Source of the DNA: Lingula anatina | Taxonomy: Eukaryota > Animalia > Brachiopoda | Direction: 5' to 3' | Assembly (NCBI GenBank): GCA_051362555.1 | Contig: CM120646.1 | Coordinates: forward strand, 8,184,001-8,248,000 | DNA: 64,000 nt | In this document: one piece after another, positions 30,623-61,164 of the stretch | Position numbering within the stretch: position 1 is the first letter of the stretch | Layout: each line of letters starts with the position of its first letter | The notes under the pieces: generated by a model | Databases searched by the model: none | Told to the model about the DNA's origin: nothing | What the model saw: only the letters and a program-made list of their open reading frames with translations | Translations under genes and position numbers: made by a program

Positions 30623-30655
<33 letters not shown>

Positions 30656-38600: not shown

Positions 38601-41600
38601 ATATTTCATTAGCTGCATTAGTTTTGGAGTTTTTCGTTAATATCCAAGATCCCTTAATTTAACAAGGCAGCAAAGCTGTCAAATGTACAGACAAAAAGCA
38701 GGAAATAACAAAAAAAGGCTACTGTCAATTCTGATGCAAAAGTACATTATGTTAAACTGCAAATTCAACATCAAATTTTAATTATGCTCAACAGGTAAAA
38801 TACATCTGTGTCTGTACATAAAAACGGCATTTCTTTAAAATAATGGCCCGATTATGCTGATTTTTGAACTCAACCTGCGATTTAGCAGGAATGACCACTC
38901 CTGTGAGTTTAATGACAATTGGCCTATCTGTTTTTCTTATATTGTGTTTACAGTGTTGCATATATGCTGAAAAGTGAAAAAAAAAGCATAACTACTAAAA
39001 TAGTGGCCCGATAATGCCGATTTTTGAACTTGACCTGCGTTTTAGTAAGATCAATTACTCTGCATTTTAGTCCTGTATTTCTTTTTTGAAAGTTTGACAA
39101 TCATAAGTAACATGGTTTTCCCATAATGGTCATCTTAGCAGCAGCACCCAAAATTGTGTTTTCTTCTATTCTGATGCAATATTACATAATGGTTAACAGC
39201 AAAATGACCGTTAATTTTTAATAATTAAATACACATATCATGGATTTTCAGAAAATGTTACTAGCATGGGTCTTCAAGCCCGTGGAACATGCCGATTTTC
39301 GAACTTGACCTGTGTTATAGTAAGATCAATTACTCCTGTGATTTTCATGACAACAGGCCTATCGGTTTTCCTTAAAATGTGTTTACAGTGTTGCATATAT
39401 GCTGAAAAGTGAAAAAACAGCATAACTTCTACAATAATGGCCCGATCATGCTGATTTTTTAACTTGACCTGCGTTTTATGAATATTCATCAGCTCTGTAA
39501 ATATACAGCCAAAAAGTAAAACTGCCTTCCACTTATCATGTTTACAATGAAAGTGCACGGCATCGGCACCGGCGACAACGGCGACGACAGACGCAGGTGA
39601 TGGCAATATGTACAGACACATCTGTACATATTTACTGTACTGTTTGAGAACAGTAAGTGACATGGTTTTTCTTAAATGGTCATCATGGGAGCAGTGCCCA
39701 AAATAGGTTTTTATCAAATTTTGATGCAATATTACATAATGTTTAACAGCATAATGACCATCAATTTTTAATAATAAAATATTAGTATCATGGATATTCA
39801 GAAAATGTGACTAGCAAAGGTCTTCAGGCCCATGGAACTTCCAAGTCACAACTTGAAAATGCCAAAATGTAAACAAGACAGCACTGTTCTGAAATGTTTT
39901 TTTTCCATTTTTAACACTTTTTTTAACATAAAACAAAATTAACAGGTTACTGCCATTTTTATACGATCAACTAAGAAAATTGATGAGATGGGAAAAATAT
40001 CAATACAACAGTGTTAAATGTCCAATTTCCTCCATTCTGAGATTCTGAACATAGTGAATGATTGAATCTGACAAACTGCAATGATATGAGTTTATTTCCA
40101 TTTTTGAAACTTTATTACACAATACACGCTAAAAAGTTTACCATCATTTTTACATAATCAACTAACAATGTTGTAAAGATGCAGGAAATGTCAAACAAAC
40201 ACTTTTACGTATCTTATTAGTTCAATAATGAGACTGTTAACATGCCTAAGAGTTGAATCTGAGGAAATTTGAAAAAACAGCATAACTTCTAAAATAATGG
40301 CCCGATTATGCTGATTTTCGAACTCAACCTGTGTTTTAGTAAGATTGACCACTCCTGTGAGTTAAATGACAATTGGCCTATCTGTTTTTCTTATATTGTG
40401 TTTACAGTGTTGCATATATGCTGAAAAATGAAAAAACAGCATAACAACTAAAATAGTGGCCCGATCATGCCTATTTTCGATCTTGACCTGCGTTTTAGTA
40501 AGATTGATTACTCCTGTGAGTTTCATGACAACAGGCCTAACGGTTTTCCTTAAAATGTGTTTACAGGGTTGCATATATGCTGAAAAGTGAAAAAACAGCA
40601 TAACTTCTACAATAATGGCCTGATCATGCTGGTTTTCGAACTTGACCTGCGTTTTATGAATATTCATCAGCTTTGTAAATATTAAGCCAAAAAGTAAAAC
40701 TGCCCTCCACTTATTGTGTTTACAAGGAAAGTGCACGGCGCCGGCATCGGCATCGGCGACGGCGACGGCGACGACAGACGCAGGTGATGGCAATATGTAC
40801 AGACACATCTGTGTCTGTACATAATAAAACATAAAAACCTAAAATCATAAATACAAATCAAGGTAAATGATTAAGTTGGTTCTCAGTTTGGTAAATATAT
40901 AACTTGCAATTGAAAGTCTCAGAAAAGTTCAGAGCATATTACCTTGAACATGAGTGAAATAATCCTCTGCTCCACTGTAGTAACCGTAGAAATGGTCAAA
41001 CCCCCTGGATGTAGGAGTATAGCTCCAGTTACAAAAACCAAGATGCCACCTAGACAAATGAAACATGAAAGACAATTTCAGCTTTAAAAAATTTTGAGTG
41101 CGACCTTCAAACAATTATATCATACAACATTTTTAACTGTCATTATAACACCTTGGCATTTGACAACATTAATTCATTCCATTTCTTCTGGAAAAGCATG
41201 CCACCAAAAATAAAAATTGAATGGTAAAGCAAGCACACCTGCACTGTCTACTTTTAAATATATGTATGATGTAAAATGAATTAATCTTACAATCAAAATT
41301 AAACAAGTGGCAAAGCAGTATATAATTCTCCATTCATCATGCTACAAAATGGCAGTCCCACTGTCACAATATGCTCAGCACTCGCAGCTTAGACCCTATT
41401 CCCATACCTAAATTGACCTAGCAGTATTTAGCCATCTCTGAGGGGTTTCTTGGTAAATTGGATTCAGCTTAAGTGCCTTAGATGTCTGGCATGCCTACTG
41501 AAGCTGCTAAACAATAGGTTATTACCCCTAAACAGCTTCAGTAGGCATCAGAGCTGTTAAAGCTGTATGTAATTTAGCAAGAAACCCCTCGAGATGGGTC

Positions 41601-43354
41601 CATCCTGCTTGATCGATCTAGGTACGGAAACAGGGTCAAAGACCACCCATGACACATTCAATCTTTTGACAGCTAAAAAAATTTCAAAATCCTTAAAAGG
41701 AGCTAGAACTACTAGTAATTAAAACAAGATACACCCTGTACAAAAACTGCTGTTGCATTGGCTATTTGGGTTAACAATGAAACAGAAACAGTAGCCAGCA
41801 AATGAACAAACTTACGGCATTTTTATGGCCTGGCCTCATCTTTACTGGCCGTGGAGCCAGGTTTAATGTCTGAGACTCAGGCTTAGAGAATGTTCACAAT
41901 TAATTTTGTTGAACTAGCTGATGCCCACTAATTCTATGCGGACCCAATGAAGAAAATCCGTTTAACTGACTAATATGCCTCCTCCTGGCATATACATGTT
42001 GAATATAGAAAAGATTGTGATGGTATGAGTGCATTGGAAACAAATGGTGTGTTAATCAGTAAATCTGATTGGATTCAGTGAGAATCCCTGTAGCATTAGT
42101 GTCCATTAGCTAGGTCGCCAATATTCATTGTATACAGTCCCTTACTTTCCAATCATACTTGTCCTGTATCCCAGTGCCTGCAGGTGCTGTGGCAGTGTGG
42201 TTCTGTTCAGAGGAAGACCATAGGGCTGTGTATCATGTATCACACCATGCTGGAAAAGAAAGAATTTCTTCAAGTTATTAGTTCAAGCTTTAAAATGATT
42301 GCTCTTTTATGTGGTAGGATATATGTATCCTTCAAGCTGTCTGATATTCCTAGGTTAGATAAAGAAAAAAATTCAGGTAAATGTCTTTTAAATTAATTCT
42401 TAATGTCTTTCTTAACTGTCATTTTATTTCAAAGGAAAGCTTATCCATGTTACACTTTTTTTAGGTAGTATGTACTAATAAATGTGAAAATGCACGTAAT
42501 TCTTTCAAAGTGGTAAAAGTGATAAAATTACTGCCTCTATTCAAAAAATCCCATTCTTATGCAAATTGGCCAGGGTCCGCTTGGGCCAAACCAAGGAAAA
42601 AATGTGGTACAAAATCAGAGATTTTTAAAAATATTTCTGAGCTTTTCATTTAACAGATTGATGGTTGGCAAGTAATAGTACTAAAAATTCACTGAGGATC
42701 CCTAGAAAGTGTAAGTTTAAAGGAAAACACCTGCAGCTTATATGCATGTTATGTATACAGGTCATCTTATTACTACCTGAAGTCCATTGTGAAATGGGTA
42801 ATATCCAGTTAGAAATGCACTTCTTGATCTGAAAATGTTCAAACAAACTTTCTTAATTATGCTCTAACCATTACAAACATTTCGTCAACTTATGCAGGGT
42901 ATATAATTTAGCAATACCTAGCTAACAGACACACATATAATTATACACATGTAAACACACAGATATCAGTCACAGGACATCATATTCAAACCAATATACC
43001 AATGGTTATCAAAGCTACCGTAAAGCAGTGAAGATATTACTACTAGCAGTACATACGGACTACACCATGGCTGCACATAAGACTGGTTGAGAACCACTCC
43101 ATTATTTGCCAAGCGATTAATGTTTGGGGTTTTTACAGCTGGGTTTCGGAAACCAACATCATTCCAACCTGCAAAAATGAAATAGTGAATATGCTTGAGA
43201 GATGCCAGTGCTGAAGGTTTATATTGGCAGGTTCACACCTGCTGAGGGATTAACACCAATAAATAGAAATAATCTGAAATGGCTAATTAGTTTTTTTATT
43301 TTTATGATTTATTTATCTATTTATTTATTATTATTCTTTATATATTTATTTTAA

Positions 43355-45355: not shown

Positions 45356-45529
45356 GGGGGCGTCTCGATAGTCCGAAGGTTCATTGGTCCGAAGGTTCAT
45401 TGGTCCGAAAAGTGGTAACATTTTTATCTATTTTTTAATCAAGGGTTCATTGGTCCGAAGGTTCTATAGTGAACATTCGGACCAATGAACCTTCGGACTA
45501 TTGAACCTTCGGACTATCGCTACGGCCCC
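45356..45529. mobile_element. Short foldback-type MITE with 16-bp subterminal repeats
   Basis: GGGG...CCCC ends, with AAGGTTCATTGGTCCG repeats on the left and their reverse complement on the right. Confidence 0.7.
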
Positions 45530-45666
45530 ATATATATCACGTGTGTGAGCACTGGTCAGCGCTCGAACGCTATATAAAGCTGACCGAGGCAGAGGGTGTG
45601 GTCAGAAATCGCCAGAGACACCCGCTTTCACCATCTAGTGTTGCTGAGACGCCGACGACTGAAGAG

Positions 45667-48646
45667 ATGAAGGTTATCTTACTTCTGGTATGTTTAAAAC
45701 TAGTGCAGGGTTTCTTTCAGTCACATTTTTAACACGATACTCATTCAACTCAAAGAAATAAGATATATGTATATCTAAGTTTTCGTTTCTTATGTCAGCA
45801 CGCTGTGTAAGCAGAGCAGCTGTTGCATGTTGTCAGGTAGGCGTTCGGTGCGTCAGCTGCGTGCATTAAGGCATATACAGAAACTTTCAGTAAGGTTTCA
45901 CCCGGTCGGATACAAAAATGTCGAATGGCCCGATATTTATCAATCGTGGCTAAGCAAAGAAGTGAGCAATCGGCCACATGTTCAGCATGACCATGTCCTT
46001 CTGAACATTCAGATGGAAATATCGGATAATTTTTCCTTGGGGGAGGGGGTATTTTTAAGTCTTGACAGGGAAAGATAAGTTGCGGGATACAGTGTATGTA
46101 GATATAGAAATAAAGACTTAAGTTATTTCAAAACACTGATATTATACCTTTATACCTTAATTTATACCTTATGTAAAAGTTGAATATTTTGCTTAATCTT
46201 CTGACTCCTTGCTATTATTTTCAGTCAATTGTTTTGAGTACTGGTTTAGCAAAGAAGGCTCACAAACGGTTAGGAGGCGACAAATACGACGCTGTTGCTC
46301 CATATGTCGAGGTATGTGTTTGTGTATTTTTCAGTTAAATTAGAGGAATACATGTACTAGCTGCTGTATAATAATGACGGTTCCTGCACATAGTAACCCA
46401 CATGATCCCTATCCTGGCCCTTCTTTTCGCAGGTAGGCTACCCCTTCTAAACCTATCCCTTATAAATAGTGCATGTAGGCCTACATATAACAAACGAAAC
46501 GAGACACAGCCAAGCGACTTTTCTATTCTCGAGCCCCATAAGTTACTGTGAAGTCGTCATTATCTCCTTTTGGCTTGGCATAAAAATATTTGTGCACCCG
46601 CCCCCCCCCCCCCGCCCCCCCCCCCCCCCCCGCCCCCCTTGACGAATTGCTTGACCTGCCCGTGTTGAGGTATATTGTAGTAGAGTAGTCGGGGCACGGG
46701 CCGTGTTTCAGACGACATGCTAACAGGAAAAAAAAAATTGGGAAATGTTTTTAATTCGACGGGACACGCATCTGGTATTTAACGTATATGCTTTAATCTT
46801 ATTCACTCCAGAAGCAAAACAATTCCTGATCAAACATATATGGTTCTTTTACAAAGGTCCTGACTATCAGGTTTATTTTTTACTTACTCGACTGAAGAGT
46901 TGTAAACTTTTTATTCAGTAGCAATATACAAACTTAGTTTTTGGCTTATGAATCACACACAAAAACACACACGCGCGCGCGCACACACATTTACATATAC
47001 TTGGTCTCTCGTTCTCTCTCAGTAAAAAAGGTTGTACAATTACAGTAATGCATAAACGGGTAGAAAGTAGAGATTGACAATTCATGTTGTTAACCTTACA
47101 ATTGAAATTCTAAGAGGTATATCATAAGCTTGTTGCTTGTCAATTAATTTGTAATATGCGATCAATATTTTCTCATTTTCTTTTAACATGTTTTTTTTGT
47201 CGGTATACATATATAAAAAATATAAACAAATATTTCTGTAATAATTAATATATTGTCTTGTTCCTTCCCATGTTGGGATTTGTTTTCGTTCTACATAAAC
47301 TAATATATTTCTTAATTATTAAGATCAGTAGATAAAAACCTTTTAAGTCATATGATTGCACAAGCCCGAGTATAAAAATCTCGGGAGATCTGTCAATTGC
47401 AGTACCTAAATTATCTTTTACGGAACAAATGACACACGTTCAAACATTCTGTACATGAGGGCAATCCCAGAAAACGTGAAGAATAGTTTCCCTGGCAGCA
47501 TTGCAAAATTCACACTGTTCTGATTCTTATTAAAAAATTTTCATAAGATAAACATTTGTACTTAATATTCTGTGCAATCATTTCTTTCTTTGCGGAAATT
47601 CCGTTCAGAACTGTTCACTGAGTGATCAAGGCCTCGTATGAATTAAATTATGATTATTCATATTTCAGCACGACAGATATACTGAAGGTAAATATTTTCT
47701 TTTTCCATTTACACTCCCTGCTCTCACTTTATTGCTAACTTCCTACTGTGGATTGATGGTCTCTTCTTTTATTTCTCTTAGATCTCTGTCGACATTATAA
47801 CGGTCACACTGTCACGTTCAGAGTATTGATTAAATAAAACCAATAAATTGTTTATTTAAAAGTATAAAAGTATGAGGTAGTCAAACTCTCTTAAAATTGC
47901 TGCATTTATTAAAAGCTGAACTAGAACGGATGGCTTCAAGTTTGACCTTGTTGTAATTATTTCTATTTATCTTTCTGTTCATCTTACTTGACTAATCTTT
48001 CCTAAATGGTATATATGCATTCCGGTAAATATAAAATTGCATGAAGTTTCATTGTATTTAGTTATAGGCCTTTTGTTATTAAAACCATAGTTGATCCGCG
48101 GACTAACAGATCCGAGGACCAAATATGGCCGACCCACTTGAAAGCTTGTTGCCCAATCCCCCAACAGACACTGAATAAGTTATTAGGGGGTAAGCTATCA
48201 AATGGGTCGGCCATATTTGATCCGCGGATCAACTTTAGGTTGTATATGCGGCATTGGTATTTCTACGTGAATAATATCGCCTTTTATTATCTGTGTATAT
48301 ATATATAGACTCGTCATATAATCCACAGTGCAAAACGAACACGATTTAAAAATTTTAATCAAGATTCATTTTTATGTCCTTTCTACAGGCTTGGATCGCC
48401 GTGTATTGGCCGCCTTGCCTGCTTTGGTTATTAGCTCGTATGCTAAATTGAAAGCGGAATGTGCTGCCGGTGTCGCTCTCAACAAGGGAATCGGACTTTT
48501 GTGCGCATGTAATTTGGTAAGTACGAAAGTAATCTCGACTTAAACTTGATTTATCTTTGGCAAATTTACATCGTGATAACAATGGCGAAGAAGAATTAAT
48601 GATTCATTGCATGTTATTAAAACAATATGGAGTGTGAAAGAAATTA

Positions 48647-48716
<70 letters not shown>

Positions 48717-49324
48717 AATGGCGTAGTTTCGTTCAAGTATTGTATAAGTCTTTTATCTAACAATAACAATGTACAGGAAAAGAAAAAAATGATCATCAAT
48801 ATACCAGTATGTCCGAACCAAAACTGTTGAGAAAAATCACTGTCTACTACTTGGCACCTCATCATGTATACAAAAAGTATTTGGCTCTCTAATCCATTCT
48901 TCATTCATTTCATGCTTCACAACTGTAAAACTAAATACATGTTTAAGAAAACAGATGGCATATTTTATGAAACTTTATCGAAAGAATTTACAGGTACACA
49001 ATAAACGCAGCAAGACAGTATTTACTGCAGCAACACCGCAGTAGCAAATAGAAATGAAGTACTGTCCCTTCACCTATCGTTCTAAAAAAGTAAATTTACC
49101 TTTTTAACCCTCACCAGGTATGTGAAAGTGGCACTTGTACCGGATTCCGCTGCGGTTCATGCTCTGTCAATTCGTGTGCATCAGGCCAGTATTGTGCATA
49201 TGTACCCTTGCTAAAAAGTTCTCGATGTCAGACGAAGAAGGAATGTCAAGAAGGGTGTATCAGGAGCCGTGAGTGTGCCAGCAAACGCTGCAGATTCTTC
49301 CGGTGCAGATGTGATGAAAGCTAA
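45667..49324 (+). CDS. Secreted 16-Cys prepropeptide, copy A (about 153 aa; antimicrobial/toxin-like)
   Basis: TATATAAAG at 45571. Exons: 45667-45687 (MKVILLL), 46225-46311 (SIVLSTGLAKKAHKRLGGDKYDAVAPYVE), 47669-47687 (HDRYTE), optional 47782-47802, 48389-48516 (GLDRRVLAALPALVISSYAKLKAECAAGVALNKGIGLLCACNL), 49118-49324 (VCESGTCTGFRCGSCSVNSCASGQYCAYVPLLKSSRCQTKKECQEGCIRSRECASKRCRFFRCRCDES*). AATAAA at about 49479. Confidence 0.85.
48649..48713. repeat. (TA)n microsatellite
   Basis: Pure TA run in the last intron of Cys-rich gene A. Confidence 0.95.
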
Positions 49325-50968
49325 TATTGCCCAGTGCGGTGTAATGTGTTATGCCTGTAATTCAGTGTAAATTCGTTAGATGTAAACGAGGACATCTGAA
49401 AATATTATCTTTCCATGCTTACGAGGCAAAGGCATCATAAAGAGGCTGTTGTAATTGAATAATATTAAGATCTAATGAAATAAAAAAAGGAGTATAAATG
49501 CAAATCGTACTTTTGTTCTTTGTCATTGCATGTGTACATCATATCTTTTAACTAGAATATCGAAAGGATAGAATGTCAGTAAATGAAAAATAACGTACCG
49601 TGCAGGGGATGAATACAAATATCATCAAAGCGTGAATCGCAGAACTACACCTCTCCCCCCCCCCCCCCCCTCCAAAAACAAAAACGCTACCGGTTTGACA
49701 AGAATAATTATGGTAAAACCATGTTGTAGTTTTAAGGTAATAAAATCGGATGTTAATCGTATATATTCCAGGGTAAAAAGATTTTATTTTAATGCATAGA
49801 TGAAATGCACAAATATTGACGGCTTTAGTCGGTCTAGTCTTTTAAAAACCGCAGAAAGTGCTAGACAAGAAGAATGGACACATAATGAGAGGAGTCTATT
49901 TGATTGACTCCAGTGCACTAAACTGTGCAGAAAGGAAGGTTGGAGGCTGTGGGAGATCATGTTGCACATTCTGTCACTTTCCTGTCATTTACCGTGTTTG
50001 TCCTAAGTTGTCACGCCCTCCAAGAGTTTACTGGAAGCTGGCGTGTGTCATAAACTTCCCCTCACCTTTGAATCTGTTTAATCATGGAACTGTTCATTGT
50101 TAGGTAATCATTTGAAACGAAAGGAGAACACTTCGTGGGTTTGAAAATCCCCAAAATGCTTTTTTGTCATCCACAACTTTTTTTAGAAGCCTTACACCTT
50201 TAATTGGTGTAACCCCTTGAGTATTTTTCTGGAGCATACATATTGTTGATATTTCCATCAGAGCTTAAGAAGTTGGTCGCAGGTTATTAAGACTAGTCAG
50301 TCATTTTAAACTAAATCAACCTTTATGAATTTAAGTAAAGGTCGAATCCAAGTGCAGAGAGGGATAAGTAAGTACGAGAAAATCCAATTTGGCAGGTAAA
50401 GCCCATGGAGTTGCCCTTTGCCGATTCAGAGCAGATTCCCTATCAATTGCTGCTCATAATGGTGACTTTTTTTGCTTTCCGTAAGGGAAAAAGTTCTTTT
50501 TCGTTTTCAGAGTCAAGTACTTGACTTATGCAGTGCTTTGTCTCAGAGAGAACTCGACCCCTCGCAGTACCGTGGGCAGAAATCGTGCAGTGACTAGAGC
50601 ATTTTATAAACAATACCTGGGAGATAAAAACCCAGCTGTTGATTTGATTTCATTTTATTTAATCAAGTATTTAATTTTTTTGTAAATTTTCCTGGAGTAG
50701 AATTTTACTTGGCAGACAGATAAACATTCCCTCGCCAGCAATGAATATTATCATAATCAGACAGTTCTTATTATCTCTAAATATAACCGTTTAAATTTAT
50801 ATATAGACAGGCGACGTGGTGACAAGTTATCAGAAACCTTTTTCTGTGGGAAGGTTTATTGTGAGGAAAATGTATAAATGCTAATGATGCGACAAGTACC
50901 AACAAACGCCTTGGGGACGCCAACGTGGTCATTTATCTCTGCGTAGACGACATTCCTCCCGTTCCAAG

Positions 50969-53377
50969 ATGAAGTATTTGCTGTTTGTGGTAGGTTCAAA
51001 TATTGTAATATCGTATGGGGTCTCCCCCTCTATTTGTTAACTTAAATTTAAAACAGTATTGGAGCACTCGTCTACGCTTTCTTTCTAACAAATTTCAAAA
51101 ACATTAATCCTTTAGTTTAAATATATCCCTTTCAGTTACTTCTGCTTGGCGCTTGCCTAGCAGCCAGCGCTGTCGAAGAGGCTGAAGGTGAAAATAGCGA
51201 TCAGTTCGTCGACGATGGTGGAGAGGAGGTTCTGGGGGATCAGCTGGAGGGCCAGGAGGTCGAAAATGATCTTTATGACAAGGTATTATTTGATGTTTTA
51301 TCTTTTAGGTAGTTATTGATACTTTGCTATACATATTTTTCTCATTTGAAGGCCCATGACTAAGAGACTAGAAAGGCAGTTTGAAATAAATATTTTTGGA
51401 TTTGGTGCTTTCTGTTTTAGAGAAAGCGTATGGGGTATTTTATTGTATTCAGAAGAGTCTTTTTTCTTTGATAACCAGCATGAATATCATTCATGTTATA
51501 TACCTGTTGAGCAATGTCATGGTTACGTTAATGTTGATACTTGCCTTGTTACCGATGCCAGAGGTGCTGCTTATATACATTTGAGTTTTGGTGACCAAAA
51601 GAGTAAAAGTCTACATGACTACAGGAGAATTAATTGTATTGTTAAATTTGTTTTGTTTGTTTCCTTTCTAATAAAAAAATATTTAACGTATATGCTTTAA
51701 TCTTATTCACTCCAGAAGCATAACAATTCTTCCTTATCAATGATTCTTTTACAAAGGTCCTGACAAACAAGTTTATTTTGTACTAACTCGACACTTGAAG
51801 AGCTGCAAATATTTCTTTCTTTGCAGAAATTCTGTTCAGCATACTGTTCGGTGAATGATCAAGGCTTCGTATGTACTAAATTATAATTATTTATATTTCA
51901 GCACGACAGATATTCTGAAGGTAACATTTTCTATTTCCTTTTACACTCTCTACTTTCACTCTATTCCTAACCCCCTGCTATTGATCTGTGGTTTCTTCTT
52001 TTATTTCTTTTAGATCCCTGTCGATATTATAACGGTCAAATTGTCACGTTCAGAGTGTTGATTAAATAAAACAAATAATTAAATTGTTTAATAAAAGTAT
52101 TATAGTATAAAGTAGTCAAAATACCTATTTTAAATTGCTGTATTTATTGAAAATTGAACTACAACGGATGGCTTCAAGATTTTTGACCTTCTTGTAGTTA
52201 TGTCTATTTATCTTTCTGTTCATCATACTTGACTTCTCTTTCCTTAATGGTGTATATGCATACATATAAAATTGCTTGAAGTTTATTTGTATTCAATTTA
52301 AGGGGTATTGTTATTAAAACCATATGATATACTCTTGGAGCGTATTCAGAACAAATTGATCCGCGAACTAAAAGATCCGACCAAATTGAAAGCTTGCCGC
52401 CTAATCCGTCGTAGGGTATTAGGGGGTAAGCTTTCATGTGCAGCCACAGGCCTATTTGATCTTCGGGTCAACTTTAGGTTGCGTATGCGGCCTAGGTATT
52501 TGTACGTGAATAATATCGCCTTTCATTATTTAATCTATGTATACATATAGACTCGTCATATCAGCAGTGCAAAACGAATAGGATTTAAAACTTTAAGATT
52601 CATTTTCATGTTCTTTCTTCAGGCTTGGATCGCCGTGGATTGGGCGACTTGCCTGCTATTGTTATTGGTAAAATTAGGCAGTTGGTAGAGGAATGTGACG
52701 CCGGTGTCGCTCTCAACAAGGGAATCGGACTTTTGTGCGCATGTGATTTGGTAAGTACGAGTATAATCTCGGCTTTTACTTGATTTATCTTAGGCAAAAT
52801 TACATTGTGATGCCAATAGCGAATAAGAATTAATGGTTCATTGCATGTTATGTAAACATTGTGGAGTAAAGGTAAAGCATGTATAAACGGCTAGTTTTGT
52901 TGAGTATTGTTACATTTTGCGTTAGACTTTTATATAACAATAAAAAAGTACAGGGAATTTTTAAAAAATCATCAATGTACCAATATGTCCGAACCAAAAC
53001 TGGTGATAAAAATTACGGTTTACTACTCGGCACCTCATCACGTGTTTAAGGGACCATTCCCACAGATATTTGGATCGATCTATCTCCTTGGGGAGTCTCA
53101 CTAAATTGCTGTCAACATGGCCGGCTTAAATGTCTAAACTCAGATTTGCCTCACATTATTTGTTTGTCTACTTGACCAGGTCTGTGAAAGCAACAGCTGC
53201 AGAAACTTCCAATGTGGTCAGTGTACGATCGGATCCTGCAGTTCAGGCCATTACTGCGCTGCTTTCCCCTTGCTCAAAACCTCTCGATGCGAACCGAAAA
53301 AAGACTGTGGAAGGGGATGCACCAGCAAACGCCAGTGTAAAAGTGGGCGTTGTCGCTTGTTTAAATGCAAATGTTAG
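50969..53377 (+). CDS. Secreted 16-Cys prepropeptide, copy B (about 170 aa; acidic propeptide)
   Basis: TATAAA at about 50873. Exons: 50969-50989 (MKYLLFV), 51136-51282 (LLLLGACLAASAVEEAEGENSDQFVDDGGEEVLGDQLEGQEVENDLYDK), 51902-51920 (HDRYSE), optional 52014-52034, 52623-52750 (GLDRRGLGDLPAIVIGKIRQLVEECDAGVALNKGIGLLCACDL), 53180-53377 (VCESNSCRNFQCGQCTIGSCSSGHYCAAFPLLKTSRCEPKKDCGRGCTSKRQCKSGRCRLFKCKC*). Intron phases and all 16 mature-region Cys match copy A. Confidence 0.85.
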
Positions 53378-53873
53378 AGAATTCGACTCACGGGACAAAA
53401 GAAAAATCCTTGAGAACCGCATAAACGGATCCCGTGATAAATTATGATACAAAAAAAGCTGATGCAGAATTATGAACTTTACTTCAATAATGTATTGTTT
53501 CACGAATTTACAGTCTAACAGCTGGATTACTTTCAATGTTCCGCTACGATGAGAACTTAATGAGAATTGTGCAAACATACCTGGACATTCTAATAAAATC
53601 TCAATCAGCAAGAGCGTTTTTCCCTGTCGTTCGCTTTACATAACTTTGCTTCATATTTCAATAGCTCTACAAACCGAACAATTTTCATACTAGTGTAGCA
53701 CACTGAATATTTTGGTATTTTTACAAACTAATAATATCTGCTGAAGTCTACCTGGACTTTACCTTTACCATAATTGTTTGAGATGTTATCACATAGCCAT
53801 TATGTAAGTTCTACATACCTCCCCCCAGAACATTGAAAACATTTACTAAAATTAAATTAATAAAGTCAATTGT

Positions 53874-55170
53874 TCAAAATCTTTCCGGCTTTTTAACTAT
53901 TCTACCGGAACGTGTTTTAATTAAAGAAGGTGAAAGACATGTCTCTGGTTTTGTTTGTGGATTCACTGTCTGATTGTGCACTGAAACCGGATTGCTATAA
54001 GCTGGTTTAAGTCTGTCAACCGAGACACGAATTGTTTGTCCATTCCTTAAAATATCAAAATATTTGTCTGAACGTGTTATGACAAGGTAAGGACCATCAT
54101 ATGGTCTAATCAATGTGCCTCGATGAGCATCATGTCTTACATATACATGTTCAGCTTGTTGTAAGTCAACCGGTACATATGTACAAATCTGCCCATGTCT
54201 AGATGGAGGAGCAGGAGCCAATTTCTGCATTGTTTGTTGAAGTTCTTGCACAAATTCATTGTTAGGAAAAAATTTGTCATCAGTTGTGTTCGGAATAAAG
54301 TCACCAGGTACTCTTAAATTTGTACCATAGGTAAGAAGTGCTGGTGATGCATCAATGTCCTCTTTCCATGTTGACCGGATACCAAGTAATACAATTGGTA
54401 ACTGGTCCATCCATCTTGCATTGTCTAAACGTGTTTTGAGGGCTTCTTTCAATCTGCGATGAAATCTTTCAACCATGCCATTGGATTGTGGATGATAGGC
54501 TGTTGTTGTGTTAGGTTGAATGCCAAGCACCTTGTTAAGCTCACGCCAAAGTTCACTTGTAAATTGTCTACCTTGGTCTGATGTGATGGAGTCTGGAACA
54601 CCAAACCTCGATATCCATGAGCATAAAAGAGCTTTGGCACAAGTAACTGCTTCTGCATTCGGTAAAGGTACAGCTTCTGGCCACCTTGTAAACCTGTCAA
54701 CAATTGTCAAAAGATATTTATTATTTTCTGAAGGAGGAAGAGGTCCAACCAAATCAACATGAATATCACCAAATCGTCTATCTGGTGGATCAAAGGTGGT
54801 TAACGGTGCTCTAGTGTGACGTCCAATTTTACTTGTTTGACAGGCATGACAAGATTTGACCCAATTACGAATGTCTTTTTTGAGTCCAGGCCACACATAA
54901 CGACTTGAAATGGCACGGATTGTTGGTTTTGTTCCAGGATGACAAAGATTGTGTATTGCCTCAAAAATGATCTTTGTCATTGAAGGTGGAACTACTGGCC
55001 GAGGTCGACTGGTAGTTGTATCACAGAGAAGCTTAACCTCACCAAAGTTGACTTCCTTTAACTTCAAAGATCCTGGATTGGTACACAGTTCAATCATCTT
55101 AGTGTCAGACTTTTGTGATGCTGCTAACTGTGTAAGGTCAATTGTCGGCATCGTATGTCCTCTGGACAGC
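53874..55170 (-). CDS. Gypsy integrase, out of frame with the upstream pol
   Basis: HHCC (H.LCHPG...CHAC), DDE core (HVDLVGP, TSDQGRQF, NGMVERFHR) and GPY motif. Confidence 0.88.
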
Positions 55171-57006
55171 TGTGGAGGCAATAAGTGGCTCATCAGTTTC
55201 CACTGGGGCTCTGGACAGAGTGTCTGGAACAATGTTATCAGTTCCACTGATATGTCGTATATCAGTTGTAAATTCAGCAATAAATGATAATTGTCTCTCT
55301 TGACGTGGTGATCTGTCAGATGTACTCTTGAACGCAAAAGTGAGAGGTTTATGATCAGTGAAAATGGTGAATGGTCTTCCCTCCAAAAAATATCTGAAAT
55401 GGCGGATGGTACTGTAAATTGCCAAAAGCTCACGGTCAAAAGTGGAGTATCGTTTCTGGGTAGGTGTGAGTTTTCTAGAAAAGAAAGCAATAGGTTTCCA
55501 CATCCCTGATTGAAACTGAGAAAGTTCTGCTCCTATTGCGGTGTCAGAAGCGTCCACTGATATCTTGGTTGCTGCCTGTGGTTCAGGGTGATGAAGCATA
55601 GTTGCAGAAGCAAGAGCCATTTTAGCATCCTGAAATGCTAATTGGCATTCAGGGGTCCACTGCAAAGTCTTGGCTCTGCCCTTGGTAGCTTCAGTAAGAG
55701 GTATTATTCGATGTGCGATTCCAGGAAGAAAACGATGGTAGAAATTCAGCATTCCCAGAAATCTTTGAAGGCCTTTTTTGTCCTTGGGTGGTGGAAAATC
55801 CGCTACTGCTTTCACTTTTTCTGCAAGTGGTTGAACTCCAGCTGCAGACACTGAATGACCTAGAAATTCAACGTCAGATTGTCCAAATACACACTTTTTC
55901 TTGTTAATAACAAGTCCATTTGTCCTTAACAGGTTGAAAACTGCTTTAAGATCCTCCTCATGTTGTTCAGGTGTGGAACTTGCTATTAGAATGTCATCAA
56001 GATACACAAAACAACAGTTAAGTTCCTGTAGGATGCCATCCATTAATCTTTGGAACGCCTGTGCTGCATTTTTAAGCCCAAAAGGCATTTTGAGGAACTC
56101 ATAAAGTCCAAAAGGTGTGATGACTGCAGTCTTAGGAATATCATGTTTGGCAACTGGTATCTGGTGATATCCCCGAATCAAATCGATCTTAGAGAATATT
56201 GTCTTGCCATTGAGTGATGAATTGAGATCTTGTATATGAGGTAGAGGATAACGATCGTCTATGGTGATGTCATTAAGCCGACGATAATCTCCACAAGGTC
56301 TCCAGCCACCATTGTTTTTCTTCACTATATGTAGAGGAGATGACCATGGTGAAGAGGAACGACGCACTATCCCCAGATTCTCCATTTCCTTGAATTCCAT
56401 TTTTGCTGCAGTGAGCTTTTCTTGGTCAAGACGACGTACTCTGGCTTTAACTGGAGATCCAACGGTTGGGATGTGATGTTCTACTCCGTGTTTATTTTCC
56501 TTAAAGGATGACACTAAGAGCTCCGGGTAGTGTTCTAATACTGCTTCGTATCTTGTGTGAACTTTGTGAATCCCTTGTTGCTGAGATCTAGTGAGGTGAG
56601 CATGAATGACTGTTTTTCCATCCAATGAGATTAACTTTCTGTTGGAAAGGTCAATGGCCAAACGATGAGTAGTGAAAAAGTCAGCACCTAGAATGGGTTG
56701 TGTGACGTCAGCTACCCAGAATTCTTGAGTGAATTTTGTTCCTTTCCCTAGTTTTAAAATCATCTTCCTTTTTCCGTAAGTAGGTATTTTTGTTCCATTT
56801 GCTGCAATAAGACTTGGGCCATTGGTTCGTTGTCGGTCAAATCGGTTAGCAGGAAAAACGGATTCTTCTGCTCCTGTATCTACAAGGAAAGTGCGCCCAG
56901 TGACAATATCAGAAACGGTGATTGTCCCCATATTGATCATAGAAATTTGTGGAGCATCAGATAGACCAGCAGTGCTCACTAATTTCTGCTGGCTTTGTCG
57001 TTTCCC
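55138..57006 (-). CDS. Gypsy Pol: aspartic protease, reverse transcriptase and RNase H
   Basis: FLVDTGA, RPCGDYRRLN, MPFGLKNA, YLDDIL, DASD...RELLA...TDHKPL. Entered from gag by a predicted -1 frameshift at G-GGA-AAC (57000-57006). Confidence 0.92.
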   Translation of the reverse strand, partial: GKRQSQQKLVSTAGLSDAPQISMINMGTITVSDIVTGRTFLVDTGAEESVFPANRFDRQRTNGPSLIAANGTKIPTYGKRKMILKLGKGTKFTQEFWVADVTQPILGADFFTTHRLAIDLSNRKLISLDGKTVIHAHLTRSQQQGIHKVHTRYEAVLEHYPELLVSSFKENKHGVEHHIPTVGSPVKARVRRLDQEKLTAAKMEFKEMENLGIVRRSSSPWSSPLHIVKKNNGGWRPCGDYRRLNDITIDDRYPLPHIQDLNSSLNGKTIFSKIDLIRGYHQIPVAKHDIPKTAVITPFGLYEFLKMPFGLKNAAQAFQRLMDGILQELNCCFVYLDDILIASSTPEQHEEDLKAVFNLLRTNGLVINKKKCVFGQSDVEFLGHSVSAAGVQPLAEKVKAVADFPPPKDKKGLQRFLGMLNFYHRFLPGIAHRIIPLTEATKGRAKTLQWTPECQLAFQDAKMALASATMLHHPEPQAATKISVDASDTAIGAELSQFQSGMWKPIAFFSRKLTPTQKRYSTFDRELLAIYSTIRHFRYFLEGRPFTIFTDHKPLTFAFKSTSDRSPRQERQLSFIAEFTTDIRHISGTDNIVPDTLSRAPVETDEPLIASTAVQRTYDADN

Positions 57007-57785
57007 TGTTGTCTTCGTGTAGACATTGGACAAGGACAACCATCGATGATTTGTTCACATTTCCTGGCTTTATGTCCGAACCATGAATGATATTTACATA
57101 ATTTGAACTTGATAGTGCCAGTGCGTTGCTGTTGAGATTTCATGGCGTTTATTTCTGTATCAGTTACTGTTGTAAGATTTTCTTCAGGCACTGTGGTAGT
57201 CACAGAAATTGAAGAAGGGGTAAGAGGGTCTACTTCTAAAATCCGATCAGCCATTTTAGCTAAGGTGTCGAGATCAACTTCTGGTGATTGTGCAAGAATC
57301 CGTCTCACTTCTGTTGGCATCTGATTGATGAATAATGTGCGAAAAAGTGTGCTTGGATCTGCATTTAAAGAGCGCATATGCATCAATAGTTCCGTAGGTC
57401 GTTTGTCTCCTAGACCATTTATATTGAGTAATGCTGTATCCTTTTGGTATTGTGTGGCTTCATAGGCTTCTAACAGTGCATGCTTTAGTGTTTCATACTT
57501 TCCTGTCTGAGGTGGTCTCTCAATTACTGACTGAACACGTCTAGAGGTTGATGAGTCCAGGAGTTGCACTACATGATGAAATTTAGTCAAGTCATTTGTA
57601 ATGGCTGGCTGGTGTGTTGCAAAGGATGATTCCAGACGTAAAAACCAAGCAGATGCGTTTGTGTTCCAAAATGGTGGTGCTTTAAATGAAACAGCTGATA
57701 TTGTTTGCACTGTAGAACCTTGATATATGTCCAGGGTTTGTTGTCTGATAGCATCTGCCAGCTGTTTAATTCCATCTGAATCCAT
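56979..57785 (-). CDS. Gypsy Gag (268 aa)
   Basis: Starts just after the PBS. KAPPFW...AWF..LE motif, LGDKRPTELL, C-terminal CKYHSWFG...C...C knuckle. Confidence 0.85.
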   Translation of the reverse strand: MDSDGIKQLADAIRQQTLDIYQGSTVQTISAVSFKAPPFWNTNASAWFLRLESSFATHQPAITNDLTKFHHVVQLLDSSTSRRVQSVIERPPQTGKYETLKHALLEAYEATQYQKDTALLNINGLGDKRPTELLMHMRSLNADPSTLFRTLFINQMPTEVRRILAQSPEVDLDTLAKMADRILEVDPLTPSSISVTTTVPEENLTTVTDTEINAMKSQQQRTGTIKFKLCKYHSWFGHKARKCEQIIDGCPCPMSTRRQQGNDKASRN

Positions 57786-58968
57786 TGATCACGTCGGGGT
57801 CACCAATGTAGCACACTGAATATTTTGGTATTTTTACAAACTAATAATATCTGCTGAAGTCTACCTGGACACCTGAAGTAAGTAACTCAAACACAAGTGA
57901 ACAATAACTAACCACTGCACTACCTGTGCAGCTCTTTATTATAGTACCAGTTATGCAAATGACCCAATGCTACAAGTCAAATAAATATGATTGGCTAGTT
58001 TACCACTGCATAACCACTGCAATGCAACACTTTACCATAATTGTTTGAGATGTTATCACATAGCCATTATGTAAGTTCTACACTAGCATTAAAATAAAAA
58101 AAACATTCAGCTAAATAATTTATTCCCCATTAAAAAGACGGAAAAAATCATGAAATGAAACGCAATTCAATTTTGATTAGATTTTTAATATGCCCCACTT
58201 TCTTTTCTTTGCTCTGCTACTTTTGTAATAAAAGAGATACGATCTCGCCTGGGTGTTAAAAATATGAGAACATAACAAAATTACTATTTGATTTACGAGT
58301 TACCCCCATTTACTAGATCTAGCAATAGACCCATGATGATAAAGCAATGATGATGACCACACTGACCACCATCACAAATGCATTAATAATTTTTGGGAAA
58401 AAATGTCACAAAATCTGCTTCAACAAATGCCAGCGACTTCCCATAAGCTGCTAACCATTCATTGATTTACAATGACAATTTAATGATGACAATTTAAGGA
58501 AGAAATGTGATACAACATCATTACATTCACTTGAAGGTCGAAGGCCCACTGATATTTATATGGCAATTTGTTTGGGGGGGGGGGGGGGGAGGTATGCAAT
58601 TTTGTGTGGTCAGTTGGTTTGCCTCCAGAACAAGTGATCATCAAAGCTTTTTATATTCACAATTTTGATGTAATTAAATTAAAAAAAAAAAGAAATTATA
58701 TCTGATCCCCAATTATGTTTGACATAAACTTTTATCCAATAAGGAGACACATAATGTACTGACTACTGTATAGTTTGTTTTAAGCAATAAGCATAAACTG
58801 AAATAAGTTAAAATTTTGCATGAAATAAATGCTAAATTTTCACCTTAGCTTTTGTCGAGTGATACTGTATCAAACAATAAATTTGAAGTTAATATGTAAG
58901 CAAGCTCAATCCTAGTTCCAAAATAAAAAGGATTCTAAGGAATAGTTTTATCAATTTCACTCAGCAAG

Positions 58969-61011
58969 TCAGGCAAGTGCACTGCTCTCATTTGAAACTT
59001 CTGGATGCCTTCTAAAATGCTGATAGTGAGCCCCACGGGTGACAAACCCCTTGCCACAAATAGCACAAGTGTATCTGACTTCTGTGTTATGAATGTGCAT
59101 GTGCTCTTTCATGATGGACTTTCTGTAAAAACACTTTCCACACTGGGGGCACTCGAACAGCGGAGCCTCACTGTGGGTGGTCACATGATCATCAAAACGA
59201 GACTTGATGGCAAACGACTTTCCGCAGGAGTTGCATACATAAGGGCGTGGGCCTTTACTATGACATTCCTTCTGGTGGCGTTTTAAACTTGCGACGCCAG
59301 GGTATATCTTTCCACACTCATCACACTGAAGATTCCTTGGCACTTCCGTGTGCGTCTTCATATGTTCTTTCAGTCCGTGAAGACGCAAGTATGATTTCTT
59401 GCAAAATTCACAACTGAAAGTGGTTTGCTGGGAGTTGTGAATCTTCAGATGAACTTTGAGATCTTTTTGAAGAGCAAATTTTGCATCACAAGTTGGACAG
59501 GAGATAGTTTTAACCACATGCTTTCGATTTATGTGAGCCATAAAGCTACCAGTATACTCAGTAGCATATTCACAGTAATTGCAGTGATATCTACTTTGTT
59601 TCAATGCACCATGTTCATGTATTTCTGCCCTTTTCACAGTAACAGAAAGCTTTGAGAGGGGGCCAAGCTGACTCTGGCCTAGATGTGTGTTACCTTTGTG
59701 CAGAGCTAATTTATCCTGAGTATCAAAGGCAAAATCACACTGGTCACACCTAAATGGAAGTTTAGTTTCTTGAAGATTTTTTTCAACATCACAGTCCATC
59801 TTATGCCGTATGAGCTTCGTCATAGTGCTCATTGTCTTTTCACATTGGTTACACTGGTATTTACTGCTGTTGTGGGTAAACTTGATATGTGTTTTCATAT
59901 CTTTTTGGTCTCCAAATCTGAATGTACACTTGGGGCATTGGATTTGCCTCTCAACATGTTTCCGACTCATGTGGCGCTGAAACTGCTTCTGATCTTTAGC
60001 AGTAAATTTGCAATGGTTACAACTGATTTCATCATTTTTTTCTGTGCAGTGGGGAGTGAAATTTTCCCAAGGTAACAGAGTGGCATCAACACAGTCTTTA
60101 TCTAATCCTTTCACCCTGATGTATTCAGAAGCAGTAATACACTGGTGTCTCCTATGAGATCTGAGTGTCTTCATGCATTTGCCACATTTTACACATTGAA
60201 TTTTCATCCTCCAGTGTGTATTTTCTACATGGTTCCGCAGTTTGAATCTACTCCTGAAAGTGGCCAAGCAGACTGGACATGTCAAATTATCCCCCGGGGT
60301 CACCGGATGTGCTGTGATGACATGTCTTATGTAGTCAAAACGCTGGGCAAAAAGTTCTGGGCAAAAGTCACATCTTTGTCTGTACTTGTCTAGATTTTCA
60401 ACATGCAAGATCACAGACAGAGAGTTTATGTTATTGACTATGTTGTTACTGTCATTATCAGCACTGGAGTCCAGGTTGATTTCTGGTTTATCTGGAGAAG
60501 CACCTGTGGCTTTGGTAACTTCACACGCCACTGTCGAATGTTGAATTTGGCTTTGGTTACTGTGCTCTGCCGGATCGATTCTTTCAATGAAAAATTTACA
60601 GCTCTGTTTAATTAATGTTTCCTGAATTTCGTCTGGACTCTCACTCTTCTGCACATTGTTTTGATCACATGTCGAAGGCTGTGGGCGGGGGGACTCTTGC
60701 ATCTTGACAACGCCGTCGGAGTTTTGATCGTCGATATTTCCAGCACTCTTTTTATGGGAAATATGACGTTTCTTATCTTCATTTTTCTTTTGTCTTTTGG
60801 TAAGCATATTAACCTCTTTTGTCAAGTCTCTGTGAAGAGTTTGGACAGCTTTCCATTCGCCATGCACCCAACACGTCGTAACCCCTTTTACAACCTGCCA
60901 TGTACAATTTAATCCACTCCTTTTTATCTTTGCCGAAACTTTTTGAGCACTTGGAAACACCCGGAGAACCTCGGGAGCAATAACTGCACACACAGAGAGG
61001 AAAACCACCAT
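58969..61011 (-). CDS. C2H2 zinc-finger protein (680 aa, 14 fingers including two C2HC), single ORF
   Basis: Repeated CxxC...HxxxH motifs with a tandem C-terminal array; ATG in GAAGATGG context. Confidence 0.92.
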   Translation of the reverse strand: MVVFLSVCAVIAPEVLRVFPSAQKVSAKIKRSGLNCTWQVVKGVTTCWVHGEWKAVQTLHRDLTKEVNMLTKRQKKNEDKKRHISHKKSAGNIDDQNSDGVVKMQESPRPQPSTCDQNNVQKSESPDEIQETLIKQSCKFFIERIDPAEHSNQSQIQHSTVACEVTKATGASPDKPEINLDSSADNDSNNIVNNINSLSVILHVENLDKYRQRCDFCPELFAQRFDYIRHVITAHPVTPGDNLTCPVCLATFRSRFKLRNHVENTHWRMKIQCVKCGKCMKTLRSHRRHQCITASEYIRVKGLDKDCVDATLLPWENFTPHCTEKNDEISCNHCKFTAKDQKQFQRHMSRKHVERQIQCPKCTFRFGDQKDMKTHIKFTHNSSKYQCNQCEKTMSTMTKLIRHKMDCDVEKNLQETKLPFRCDQCDFAFDTQDKLALHKGNTHLGQSQLGPLSKLSVTVKRAEIHEHGALKQSRYHCNYCEYATEYTGSFMAHINRKHVVKTISCPTCDAKFALQKDLKVHLKIHNSQQTTFSCEFCKKSYLRLHGLKEHMKTHTEVPRNLQCDECGKIYPGVASLKRHQKECHSKGPRPYVCNSCGKSFAIKSRFDDHVTTHSEAPLFECPQCGKCFYRKSIMKEHMHIHNTEVRYTCAICGKGFVTRGAHYQHFRRHPEVSNESSALA

Positions 61012-61164
61012 CTTCGGTATTTATAACGGGAAACGCTCTTTCTTGCGTTAAAAAAAGACAAAAACAAACTAACACACACGAAACACGAACCCCCTTAACC
61101 AGCTTGCAACGTTCAGTTATTTTCTCTGAAAGATAAACTGATCTCCTTGAAAGAAGAGCTCCGA

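What the first reader, a model, noticed from the sequence alone, without database searches (positions are those of the whole stretch)
45571..53377. Hidden tandem pair of micro-exon genes encoding 16-Cys secreted prepropeptides (candidate new antimicrobial/toxin family)
Seen: neither gene appears as a whole in the ORF track. Both have a TATA box, a 21-nt first coding exon, a 19-nt micro-exon, a 128-nt exon and a terminal Cys-rich exon, with identical intron phases. The products are signal peptide, propeptide (strongly acidic in B), GLDRR, a hydrophobic/amphipathic segment (VLAALPALVISSYAKLKAE or GLGDLPAIVIGKIRQLVEE) and 16 perfectly aligned Cys. The scaffold has two C-x5-C-x4-C-x4-C modules (each paired with extra Cys) flanking a C-x4-C-x5-C-x10-C module, and the last module is Lys/Arg-rich. 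Established: C-x5-C-x4-C-x4-C is the LEAP-2 spacing; an acidic propiece, dibasic cleavage and a hydrophobic N-domain followed by a disulfide domain is the architecture of big defensins and many invertebrate toxins. Inference: a defence or venom/mucus effector family that I cannot assign to any named family.
Basis: partly seen in the sequence, partly recalled or inferred. Interest (0 to 1): 0.9.

Follow-up and report, generated by a model that had tools for sequence, protein, structure and literature searches.

The report
Brachiopod triple-hairpin secreted peptide family
Two neighbouring five-exon genes, likely of the lamp shell Lingula, are spliced and switched on in different RNA samples and encode 16-cysteine precursors predicted to be secreted and to fold as three small Dickkopf/colipase-type hairpins; they likely act as antimicrobial defence peptides of an unnamed family, but no activity has been tested.

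Summary
Both five-exon genes are intact, and RNA reads support the junctions. Gene A is expressed in 3 of 8 runs, gene B in 1 other run, and neither in 4. The only close protein found is an uncharacterised Lingula anatina relative (XP_013399821.1).

The cysteine core is not a defensin. It consists of three predicted two-disulfide hairpins. The last two model confidently and resemble Dkk4 CRD1 and the colipase fold (Z 4.8, modest). Fifteen of 16 cysteines, including a C-terminal cap, align with the end of a Sycon sponge protein built of Dickkopf_N repeats; similar repeats occur in bacteria. The proteins fail membership tests for big defensin, LEAP-2, Dickkopf and prokineticin.

Gene B is a mosaic: exons 1, 2 and 5 match the RefSeq relative, while exons 3-4 match gene A, likely through gene conversion. 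The segment after the RR site is the most variable part.

Best reading: secreted cationic host-defence peptides (0.45). A signalling ligand, an animal-directed toxin or an enzyme cofactor remain open. This is a new lineage-restricted variant on a known scaffold, untested functionally. The scan had not reported it on other DNA.

The parts
45571..45578 (+). Gene A TATA box
   Evidence: Sequence; read 5' ends at 45611-45621
45611..45687 (+). Gene A exon 1: 5' UTR plus 21 coding nt from ATG at 45667 (start of predicted signal peptide)
   Evidence: joint to exon 2 in 74/65/60 reads of X1/X2/X3
46225..46311 (+). Gene A exon 2: end of predicted signal peptide and a short, near-neutral propeptide (net +2)
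   Evidence: joints on both sides
47669..47687 (+). Gene A exon 3: 19-nt micro-exon (propeptide), phase 0 in, phase 1 out
   Evidence: joint into it in 74/70/65 reads
48389..48516 (+). Gene A exon 4 (128 nt): dibasic RR site, 19-residue hydrophobic N-segment, first 3 Cys
   Evidence: joint to exon 5 in 36/30/33 reads
49118..49500 (+). Gene A exon 5: 13 Cys, stop at 49322-49324, 3' UTR with AATAAA at 49479 (3' end approximate)
   Evidence: coverage to at least 49446
50873..50879 (+). Gene B TATA box
   Evidence: Sequence; read 5' ends at 50915-50922
50915..50989 (+). Gene B exon 1: 5' UTR plus 21 coding nt from ATG at 50969
   Evidence: joint to exon 2 in 191 X6 reads, plus variant forms in 120 and 35 reads
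51136..51282 (+). Gene B exon 2: end of predicted signal peptide and acidic propeptide (net -14)
   Evidence: joint to exon 3 in 128 X6 reads
51902..51920 (+). Gene B exon 3: 19-nt micro-exon
   Evidence: tables 5 and 5c
52623..52750 (+). Gene B exon 4 (128 nt): RR site, 19-residue N-segment, first 3 Cys
   Evidence: joint to exon 5 in 78 X6 reads
53180..53610 (+). Gene B exon 5: 13 Cys, net +10, stop at 53375-53377, AATAAA at 53592 (3' end approximate)
   Evidence: coverage
51680..53043 (+). Tract of gene B that is about 80-90% identical to gene A 46776-48867 (mid-intron 2 to mid-intron 4); likely gene-conversion or crossover tract
46776..48867 (+). Matching tract in gene A

Best explanation
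These two expressed paralogs encode precursors that are predicted to be secreted and likely cut at the RR site, releasing cationic 103-106-residue peptides that likely act as antimicrobial host-defence effectors. SHOWN: gene structure, splicing, expression in different samples, Cys pattern, net charge, and the mosaic sequence of gene B. PREDICTED: residues ~105-158 of the RefSeq relative fold like Dkk CRD1/colipase, i.e. two disulfide-directed hairpins; a third hairpin precedes them by spacing. INFERRED disulfides (P0001 numbering, from Dkk4 CRD1 and LEAP-2 pairings): 89-100, 95-105, 108-119, 113-130, 140-151, 146-156, plus a 136-158 cap and a Lingula-specific 75-91 staple that ties the N-segment to hairpin 1. 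INFERRED mechanism: the acidic propiece (B, P0001) masks the basic mature part until a convertase removes it; the Lys/Arg-rich last hairpin then binds anionic microbial surfaces and the hydrophobic N-segment engages the membrane or target, as in LEAP-2 and big defensins. The N-segment is the variable part, and recombination between neighbours likely reshuffles it on the constant scaffold.
For: Layout of signal, propeptide, RR and Cys core in all 3 members. Mature net charge +8, +8 and +14 against propeptide -14 (B exon 2) and -18 (P0001). The N-segment differs in all three members; A vs B it has pN 0.38 against pS 0.26 and intron-3 distance 0.17, while the adjoining Cys part has pN 0.05. X6 reads differ from B at 6 listed exon-4 codons, 5 of them non-synonymous. 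Tandem duplication with several B-like transcripts in X6. Lineage restriction: no small relative outside Lingula. On/off expression between samples. In LEAP-2, which has the same hairpin spacing, the hydrophobic N-terminus carries membrane and receptor binding (PMC8428150 passages). The big-defensin precursor has the same order of parts (PMC7203481 passages).
Against: No activity, induction, tissue or peptide (MS) data. The closest folds are signalling or cofactor proteins and toxins (Dkk4, MIT1, Dkk1, Bv8, colipase, draxin), and LEAP-2 ranks low (Z 2.4). The N-segments are not significantly amphipathic and are neutral (+1, -1). The propeptide of A is not acidic (exon 2 net +2). The pN>pS excess rests on 19 codons and was not tested for significance; exon 5 shows pN 0.29 < pS 0.78. 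None of four kappaB-like patterns was found within about 650 nt upstream of either gene. The site is LDRR/LERR and lacks the P4 Arg of the furin consensus (consensus recalled).
Confidence: 0.45

Rival explanations
1. They are endogenous signalling ligands (prokineticin-, LEAP-2- or Dkk-like): the N-segment exposed by RR cleavage binds a receptor and the hairpin core stabilises it.
For: Top fold matches are Dkk4 CRD1 (Z 4.8), Dkk1 CRD2 (4.3), Bv8 (3.9) and draxin (3.1). The N-terminus of LEAP-2 binds the ghrelin receptor (PMC8428150). Dibasic processing and sample-specific expression also fit hormones.
Against: The N-segments share no motif among the three members, and no orthologue was found outside Lingula, whereas ligands are usually conserved at the receptor-binding end (general knowledge). 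There is no CRD2, which carries LRP6/Kremen binding in Dkk (PMC6078440 passages).
Confidence: 0.2
2. They are deterrent toxins against predators, parasites or fouling animals, secreted into mucus and acting on ion channels or receptors.
For: An acidic propeptide with D/E before RR resembles venom precursors (recalled). The last hairpin superposes on nemertide alpha-1 (rmsd 0.8 over 27, Z 3.0) and on U3-scytotoxin-Sth1a (rmsd 1.2 over 31, Z 4.0); MIT1 gives Z 4.6. The Atlas nearest cluster by features is a putative spider neurotoxin (score 0.81, a lead only).
Against: These Z values are low and reflect a generic hairpin. No sequence match to any toxin. Alpha-nemertides were reported only from Heteronemertea (PMC5864730 passages). 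Lingula is a filter feeder with no venom apparatus that I know of (recalled).
Confidence: 0.15
3. They are extracellular binding modules: enzyme cofactors or inhibitors (colipase- or protease-inhibitor-like) or matrix/shell-associated proteins, keeping the role the repeat has when fused to secreted peptidases.
For: The nearest sequence relatives carry these repeats behind secreted enzyme-like domains: an M19 peptidase in P0005, and an HExGH-bearing domain in the sponge-type proteins P0003/P0006 (seen; not confirmed by Pfam). Colipase (Z 3.7) and the fungal protease inhibitor AmFPI-1 (Z 2.0) are among the fold matches.
Against: A long acidic propiece, a dibasic site and a hypervariable N-segment are not needed for such a role. 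The matches are weak.
Confidence: 0.15
4. The gene models are chance ORF fragments or pseudogenes.
For: No Pfam match; no peptide evidence.
Against: Stranded spliced reads at the predicted junctions, an independent RefSeq relative, and 16 of 16 Cys kept while 8 of their 16 codons differ.
Confidence: 0.01

Closest known systems
Lingula anatina LOC106165975 (XP_013399821.1), uncharacterised
   Same: Same layout and same 16-Cys spacing; B matches it at 43/45 residues in exon 2 and 56/65 in exon 5
   Different: Shorter N-segment (9 vs 19 residues) and a different micro-exon region; it may be a paralog or an unconverted allele of B
Sycon ciliatum scpid25875 (P0006) and similar unnamed proteins (P0002, P0003, P0009): secreted proteins of 564-1151 aa with tandem Pfam Dickkopf_N repeats
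   Same: 15 of 16 Cys align, and the C-terminal cap (C-x3-C ... C-x-C stop) is shared; phmmer E 1.5e-32 and 1.4e-26, summed over 10 stretches
   Different: They have many repeats (8 Pfam stretches) behind enzyme-like domains, and no short propeptide-RR-N-segment; the Lingula proteins keep only 1.5 repeats
Dickkopf CRD1 (Dkk4, 5o57) and the colipase/prokineticin fold (Dkk1 CRD2, MIT1, Bv8, colipase)
   Same: Head-to-tail disulfide-directed hairpins; best structural match Z 4.8, rmsd 2.8, 58 aligned
   Different: Three hairpins rather than two; no CC pair; no second CRD; no AVIT start; 16% identity
LEAP-2
   Same: C-x5-C-x4-C-x4-C spacing; prepropeptide with a hydrophobic N-segment before a cationic disulfide core
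   Different: LEAP-2 is one 4-Cys module of 40 residues in vertebrates; no sequence match; Z only 2.4
Big defensins
   Same: Signal, prodomain, RR/KR, hydrophobic N-region, then a cationic disulfide domain
   Different: 6-Cys beta-defensin domain and a phase-1 intron just before it; neither is present here

Membership tests
Big defensin | Prepropeptide with prodomain ending in RR/KR, then a hydrophobic N-region | tested here: met
   definition from PMC7203481 passages. Signal peptide judged by eye.
Big defensin | C-terminal six-Cys beta-defensin domain | tested here: not met
   16 Cys with hairpin-repeat spacing; no Pfam family at E<=10
Big defensin | Phase-1 intron at the 5' end of the Cys-rich region | tested here: not met
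   The phase-1 intron lies before the RR site; N-segment and first Cys share exon 4; a phase-0 intron follows the third Cys
LEAP-2 | C-x5-C-x4-C-x4-C spacing | tested here: met
   Modules 1 (with an extra Cys inside) and 3; spacing from PMC8428150
LEAP-2 | Single 4-Cys module in a ~40-residue mature peptide | tested here: not met
   93-106 residues and 16 Cys
LEAP-2 | Detectable sequence or close structural kinship | tested here: inconclusive
   No Pfam or PDB sequence match; VIA Z 2.4, rmsd 2.8 over 29
Dickkopf | CRD1-like Cys-rich domain | tested here: inconclusive
   Fold match Z 4.8 and relatives carry Pfam Dickkopf_N, but the Lingula proteins do not reach the Pfam model
Dickkopf | Second, ten-Cys colipase domain (CRD2) that binds LRP6/Kremen | tested here: not met
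   The protein ends after the CRD1-like unit; definition from PMC6425005 and PMC6078440 passages
Prokineticin/AVIT (MIT1, Bv8) | AVIT N-terminus and ten-Cys core (recalled) | tested here: not met
   Predicted mature starts are VLAA, GLGD and GLFK; 16 Cys
Alpha-nemertides / ICK toxins | About 31 residues, three disulfides forming a cystine knot | tested here: inconclusive
   Backbone superposes (Z 3.0), but length and Cys number differ; disulfide geometry could not be read from the model
Sponge/bacterial Dickkopf_N-repeat proteins | Eight-Cys two-hairpin repeat unit | tested here: met
   11 invariant Cys; repeat HMMs score the Lingula peptides 31-46 bits
Sponge/bacterial Dickkopf_N-repeat proteins | Long tandem array, often behind an enzyme domain | tested here: not met
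   Only 1.5 repeats and no enzyme domain
Antimicrobial peptide (functional class) | Kills or traps microbes; induced by infection | not testable with these tools
   No assay or tissue labels available

The most novel reading that the evidence does not exclude
A new brachiopod effector family that was made by trimming an ancient sponge/bacterial-type Dickkopf_N repeat protein to its last three hairpins, stapling on a cleavable variable N-terminal warhead, and diversifying it by gene conversion that swaps the processing-site/N-segment exons between neighbours. It would be a triple-hairpin, colipase-fold antimicrobial or toxin class not described in the literature searched.
Probability: 0.3. Interest if true: 0.75.

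Novelty: new variant of a known kind. Interest (0 to 1): 0.5.

Why it matters
Few brachiopod defence peptides have been characterised, as far as the papers searched show. If active, this would be a new disulfide-rich antimicrobial or toxin scaffold, small enough to express and test directly. It also links the disulfide-directed hairpin of LEAP-2, nemertides, Dickkopf and colipase to a repeat found in sponges and bacteria, and shows a three-hairpin arrangement where colipase-fold proteins have two. Gene B offers a natural case of exon exchange between paralogs changing the presumed active end of a peptide.

Tried and rejected
No whole genome is held, so paralog number and synteny could not be counted. 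Within the window, tblastn finds only A and B.

Sequence searches: Pfam gave no family for the exon peptides or P0001. PDB sequence searches gave 0 hits at E<=10. Exact look-up of the two exon-5 peptides was negative. Metagenome contigs: 95 pattern matches, none confirmed. Atlas searches gave only scores under 0.9 and TM under 0.5. P0004 (CCCH zinc fingers) was a spurious phmmer hit and was used as a control.

Structure: the single-sequence model was unusable (pLDDT 50) and was not searched. Foldseek gave no match at E<=0.001 (best: Dkk1 CRD2, E 0.29). Beta-defensin folds were not listed, which does not exclude them.

The Cys-fixed shuffle test gave z 4.5-7.5 for sponge-type targets, but the CCCH control reached z 2.7-6.2 (at lower raw scores, 55-80 vs 120-163). 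The hits were also pre-selected from 1.8 billion proteins, so that test is weak.

Sponge versus bacterial origin is unresolved: BLAST bits favour the sponge type (56-67 vs 20-53) and only that type shares the cap, but the repeat HMMs do not separate them.

No RNA holder was listed by index; the runs came by species label.

Literature: LOC106165975 0 papers; Lingula + LEAP-2 0 papers; two core motifs absent from 6 supplements of PMC6425005, one of them cut when stored; searches listed nothing on this family (listings only). Gerdol et al. 2018 on Lingula immune genes (doi 10.1016/j.dci.2017.12.021) is not held and may mention these genes; bioRxiv supplements are closed. Earlier scan notes: nothing by sequence, words or place.
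Full report
1. The observation. Reading the exons by coordinate gives two intact five-exon genes on the + strand. A is 45667-45687, 46225-46311, 47669-47687, 48389-48516, 49118-49324 (153 aa). B is 50969-50989, 51136-51282, 51902-51920, 52623-52750, 53180-53377 (170 aa). All eight introns are GT..AG with phases 0,0,1,0. Both genes have 16 Cys after the RR site, with identical spacing in each exon, and 8 of the 16 Cys codons differ while the residue is kept.

2. Expression. Nine RNA runs were offered by species label and eight were laid. Gene A is expressed in X1, X2 and X3 (one study), stranded in the expected sense, with three junctions in 30-74 reads each. Gene B is expressed in X6 only, with junctions in 191, 128 and 78 reads. 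X4, X5, X7 and X9 show neither gene. A is essentially absent from X6 and B from X1-X3. The micro-exon>exon 4 junction is too short to be listed as a joint, but 29 X6 reads of a B variant carry micro-exon letters between exon 2 and exon 4. X6 also holds several B-like forms, including 101 reads whose exon-4 end reads like the RefSeq relative. Whether these are alleles or paralogs cannot be told, and tissues are not given.

3. Organism and relatives. The one close hit among 5.8 billion proteins is Lingula anatina XP_013399821.1 (P0001, 158 aa, uncharacterised; E 2e-27, 86% to B exon 5). The window is therefore likely from Lingula; unchecked scan notes on the same genome say the same. A phmmer scan of 1.84 billion representatives returned 5 proteins: P0001; two large proteins of a type named as Sycon ciliatum in one cluster; a bacterial-type M19 peptidase with repeats; and a spurious CCCH protein. 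Three of the four non-Lingula proteins carry tandem Pfam Dickkopf_N repeats. A profile search added two more repeat proteins. One of them is encoded in an alphaproteobacterial MAG, with relatives in 5 other bacterial MAGs. In the alignment with one stretch from each of five relatives, 11 Cys are invariant and 15 of the 16 align with the end of the sponge-type proteins. A terminal cap pattern is present in 3 of 3 Lingula peptides tested, 4 of 4 sponge-type proteins, and 0 of 9 other entries (6 bacterial loci plus P0005, P0015, P0016; L001 and P0015 are the same gene). Whether the origin is animal or bacterial is not settled, and the shuffle control is weak.

4. Fold. AlphaFold2 with the 8-row alignment models the C-terminal part well (block pLDDT 84, 72, 93, 92, 94 from residue 111) and residues 11-84 poorly. 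VIA-align against 48,161 chains ranks Dkk4 CRD1 first (Z 4.8, rmsd 2.8, 58 aligned), then Dkk1 CRD2 4.3, U3-scytotoxin 4.0, Bv8 3.9, colipase 3.7 and draxin 3.1; LEAP-2 scores 2.4. The second look adds MIT1 4.6 and nemertide alpha-1 3.0. These Z values are modest and within 1 of each other at the top, and Foldseek found nothing significant. They do agree with the sequence route. Dkk4 CRD1 has two similar subdomains with 1-3/2-4 disulfides (PMC6078440, passages). The prokineticin/colipase fold is described as a head-to-tail pair of disulfide-directed hairpins (bioRxiv 10.1101/485722, passages). LEAP-2 is the closest structural match of nemertide alpha-1 (PMC5864730, passages). I infer three hairpins, a first-to-last cap on hairpin 3, and one extra staple (Cys75-Cys91 of P0001) that has no sponge counterpart. 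Hairpin 1 and all pairings are inferred, not shown.

5. Gene B is a mosaic. A and B are alike in DNA only from mid-intron 2 to mid-intron 4 (46776-48867 vs 51680-53043). Intron 3 differs by 0.17 and the Cys part of exon 4 by pS 0.07, whereas exon 5 is near saturation (pS 0.78). Per exon, B matches P0001 in exon 2 (43/45 vs 7/26 with A) and exon 5 (56/65 vs 37/65), but matches A in exon 3 (5/6 vs 3/6) and the Cys part of exon 4 (17/19 vs 13/19). The simplest reading is gene conversion or a double crossover that moved the micro-exon, the RR site and the N-segment between old paralogs. Inside that recent tract the N-segment has already diverged most (pN 0.38 over 19 codons; pS 0.26). X6 reads differ from B at 6 exon-4 codons among the 40 rows shown (147 rows not shown), 5 of them non-synonymous. 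This suggests diversifying selection, but the sample is small and no significance test was run.

6. How it most likely works. The signal peptide (judged by eye) would send the precursor into secretion. The propiece is strongly acidic in B and P0001 (-14, -18) but not in A, and the predicted mature peptides are cationic (+8, +8, +14). A convertase likely cuts after RR. I favour a host-defence role (0.45): the basic last hairpin binds anionic microbial surfaces and the variable hydrophobic N-segment supplies membrane or target contact, as described for LEAP-2 (PMC8428150, passages) and big defensins (PMC7203481, passages). Against this stand the absence of any activity data, N-segments that are no more amphipathic than shuffles, no kappaB-like sites upstream, and nearest folds that are mostly signalling proteins and toxins. 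Rivals: endogenous ligand 0.2, animal-directed toxin 0.15, enzyme cofactor/inhibitor or matrix binder 0.15.

7. Membership and novelty. The proteins are not big defensins (Cys array and intron position not met), not LEAP-2 (three modules), not Dickkopf (no CRD2; protostome Dkk have both domains, PMC6425005 passages; a brachiopod dkk5 is described in PMC11414264 passages) and not prokineticins. They work, most likely, like a LEAP-2/big-defensin-style peptide built on a Dickkopf_N-type repeat. Searches for a prior description found none, but the main paper on Lingula immune genes could not be read. Verdict: a real, expressed, lineage-restricted family; a new variant of a known scaffold; function untested; interest 0.5.

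Noticed in passing
window 1513-21649 (- strand): Four near-identical single-ORF UDP-glucuronosyltransferase genes in tandem (1513-3111, 5273-7048, 10534-12213, 20033-21649; about 89-92% DNA identity); the first was confirmed as Pfam UDPGT.
   Followed up: partly
window 25409-31206 (+) and 26510-29377 (-): An out-at-first (OAF) gene (Pfam OAF_N and OAF_C) with a LINE-like reverse-transcriptase element in several frames on the opposite strand between these two exons.
   Followed up: partly
window about 33191-43232 (- strand): Exon fragments that look like an arylsulfatase B-type gene (recognised from memory; the two fragments scanned gave no Pfam hit).
   Followed up: no
window 53689-58082 (- strand): An LTR retrotransposon with gag-like, RT/RNase H and integrase ORFs in different frames, just past gene B's poly(A) signal; its two LTR-like ends are 97-100% alike but differ by about 150 nt in length.
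   Followed up: partly
window 58969-61020 (- strand): A 683-codon C2H2 zinc-finger ORF.
   Followed up: no
window 16491-17169 (- strand): Two short ORFs with hydrophobic stretches, one with an RRLRRLRRLRR run; no Pfam hit. Possibly a remnant of a mobile-element gene; unexplained.
   Followed up: no
window 45356-45529, 48097-48230, 53043-53136: Small palindromic MITE-like repeats next to and inside the two genes; they attract many reads from elsewhere in the genome.
   Followed up: no
window 14477-15628 and 38820-40733: Tandem arrays with units of about 146 nt and about 159 nt.
   Followed up: no
P0003, P0006, P0009: Sponge-type secreted proteins of 1035-1151 aa join Kunitz-like Cys domains (by eye), an HExGH-bearing domain and a long Dickkopf_N repeat tail; only the repeats have a Pfam match. 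The architecture looks unstudied.
   Followed up: partly
L001-L006; P0005, P0016: Predicted secreted bacterial proteins (Alphaproteobacteria, Gammaproteobacteria, Thiobacillus, Myxococcota MAGs) carry the same Dickkopf_N-like repeats, which raises the question of where this animal-like module arose.
   Followed up: partly
window 48515>53179, run X6: 30 reads join an A-like exon-4 end to B exon 5 while A exons 1-2 have no coverage in that run; most likely a B allele or paralog with an A-like codon rather than read-through splicing.
   Followed up: partly
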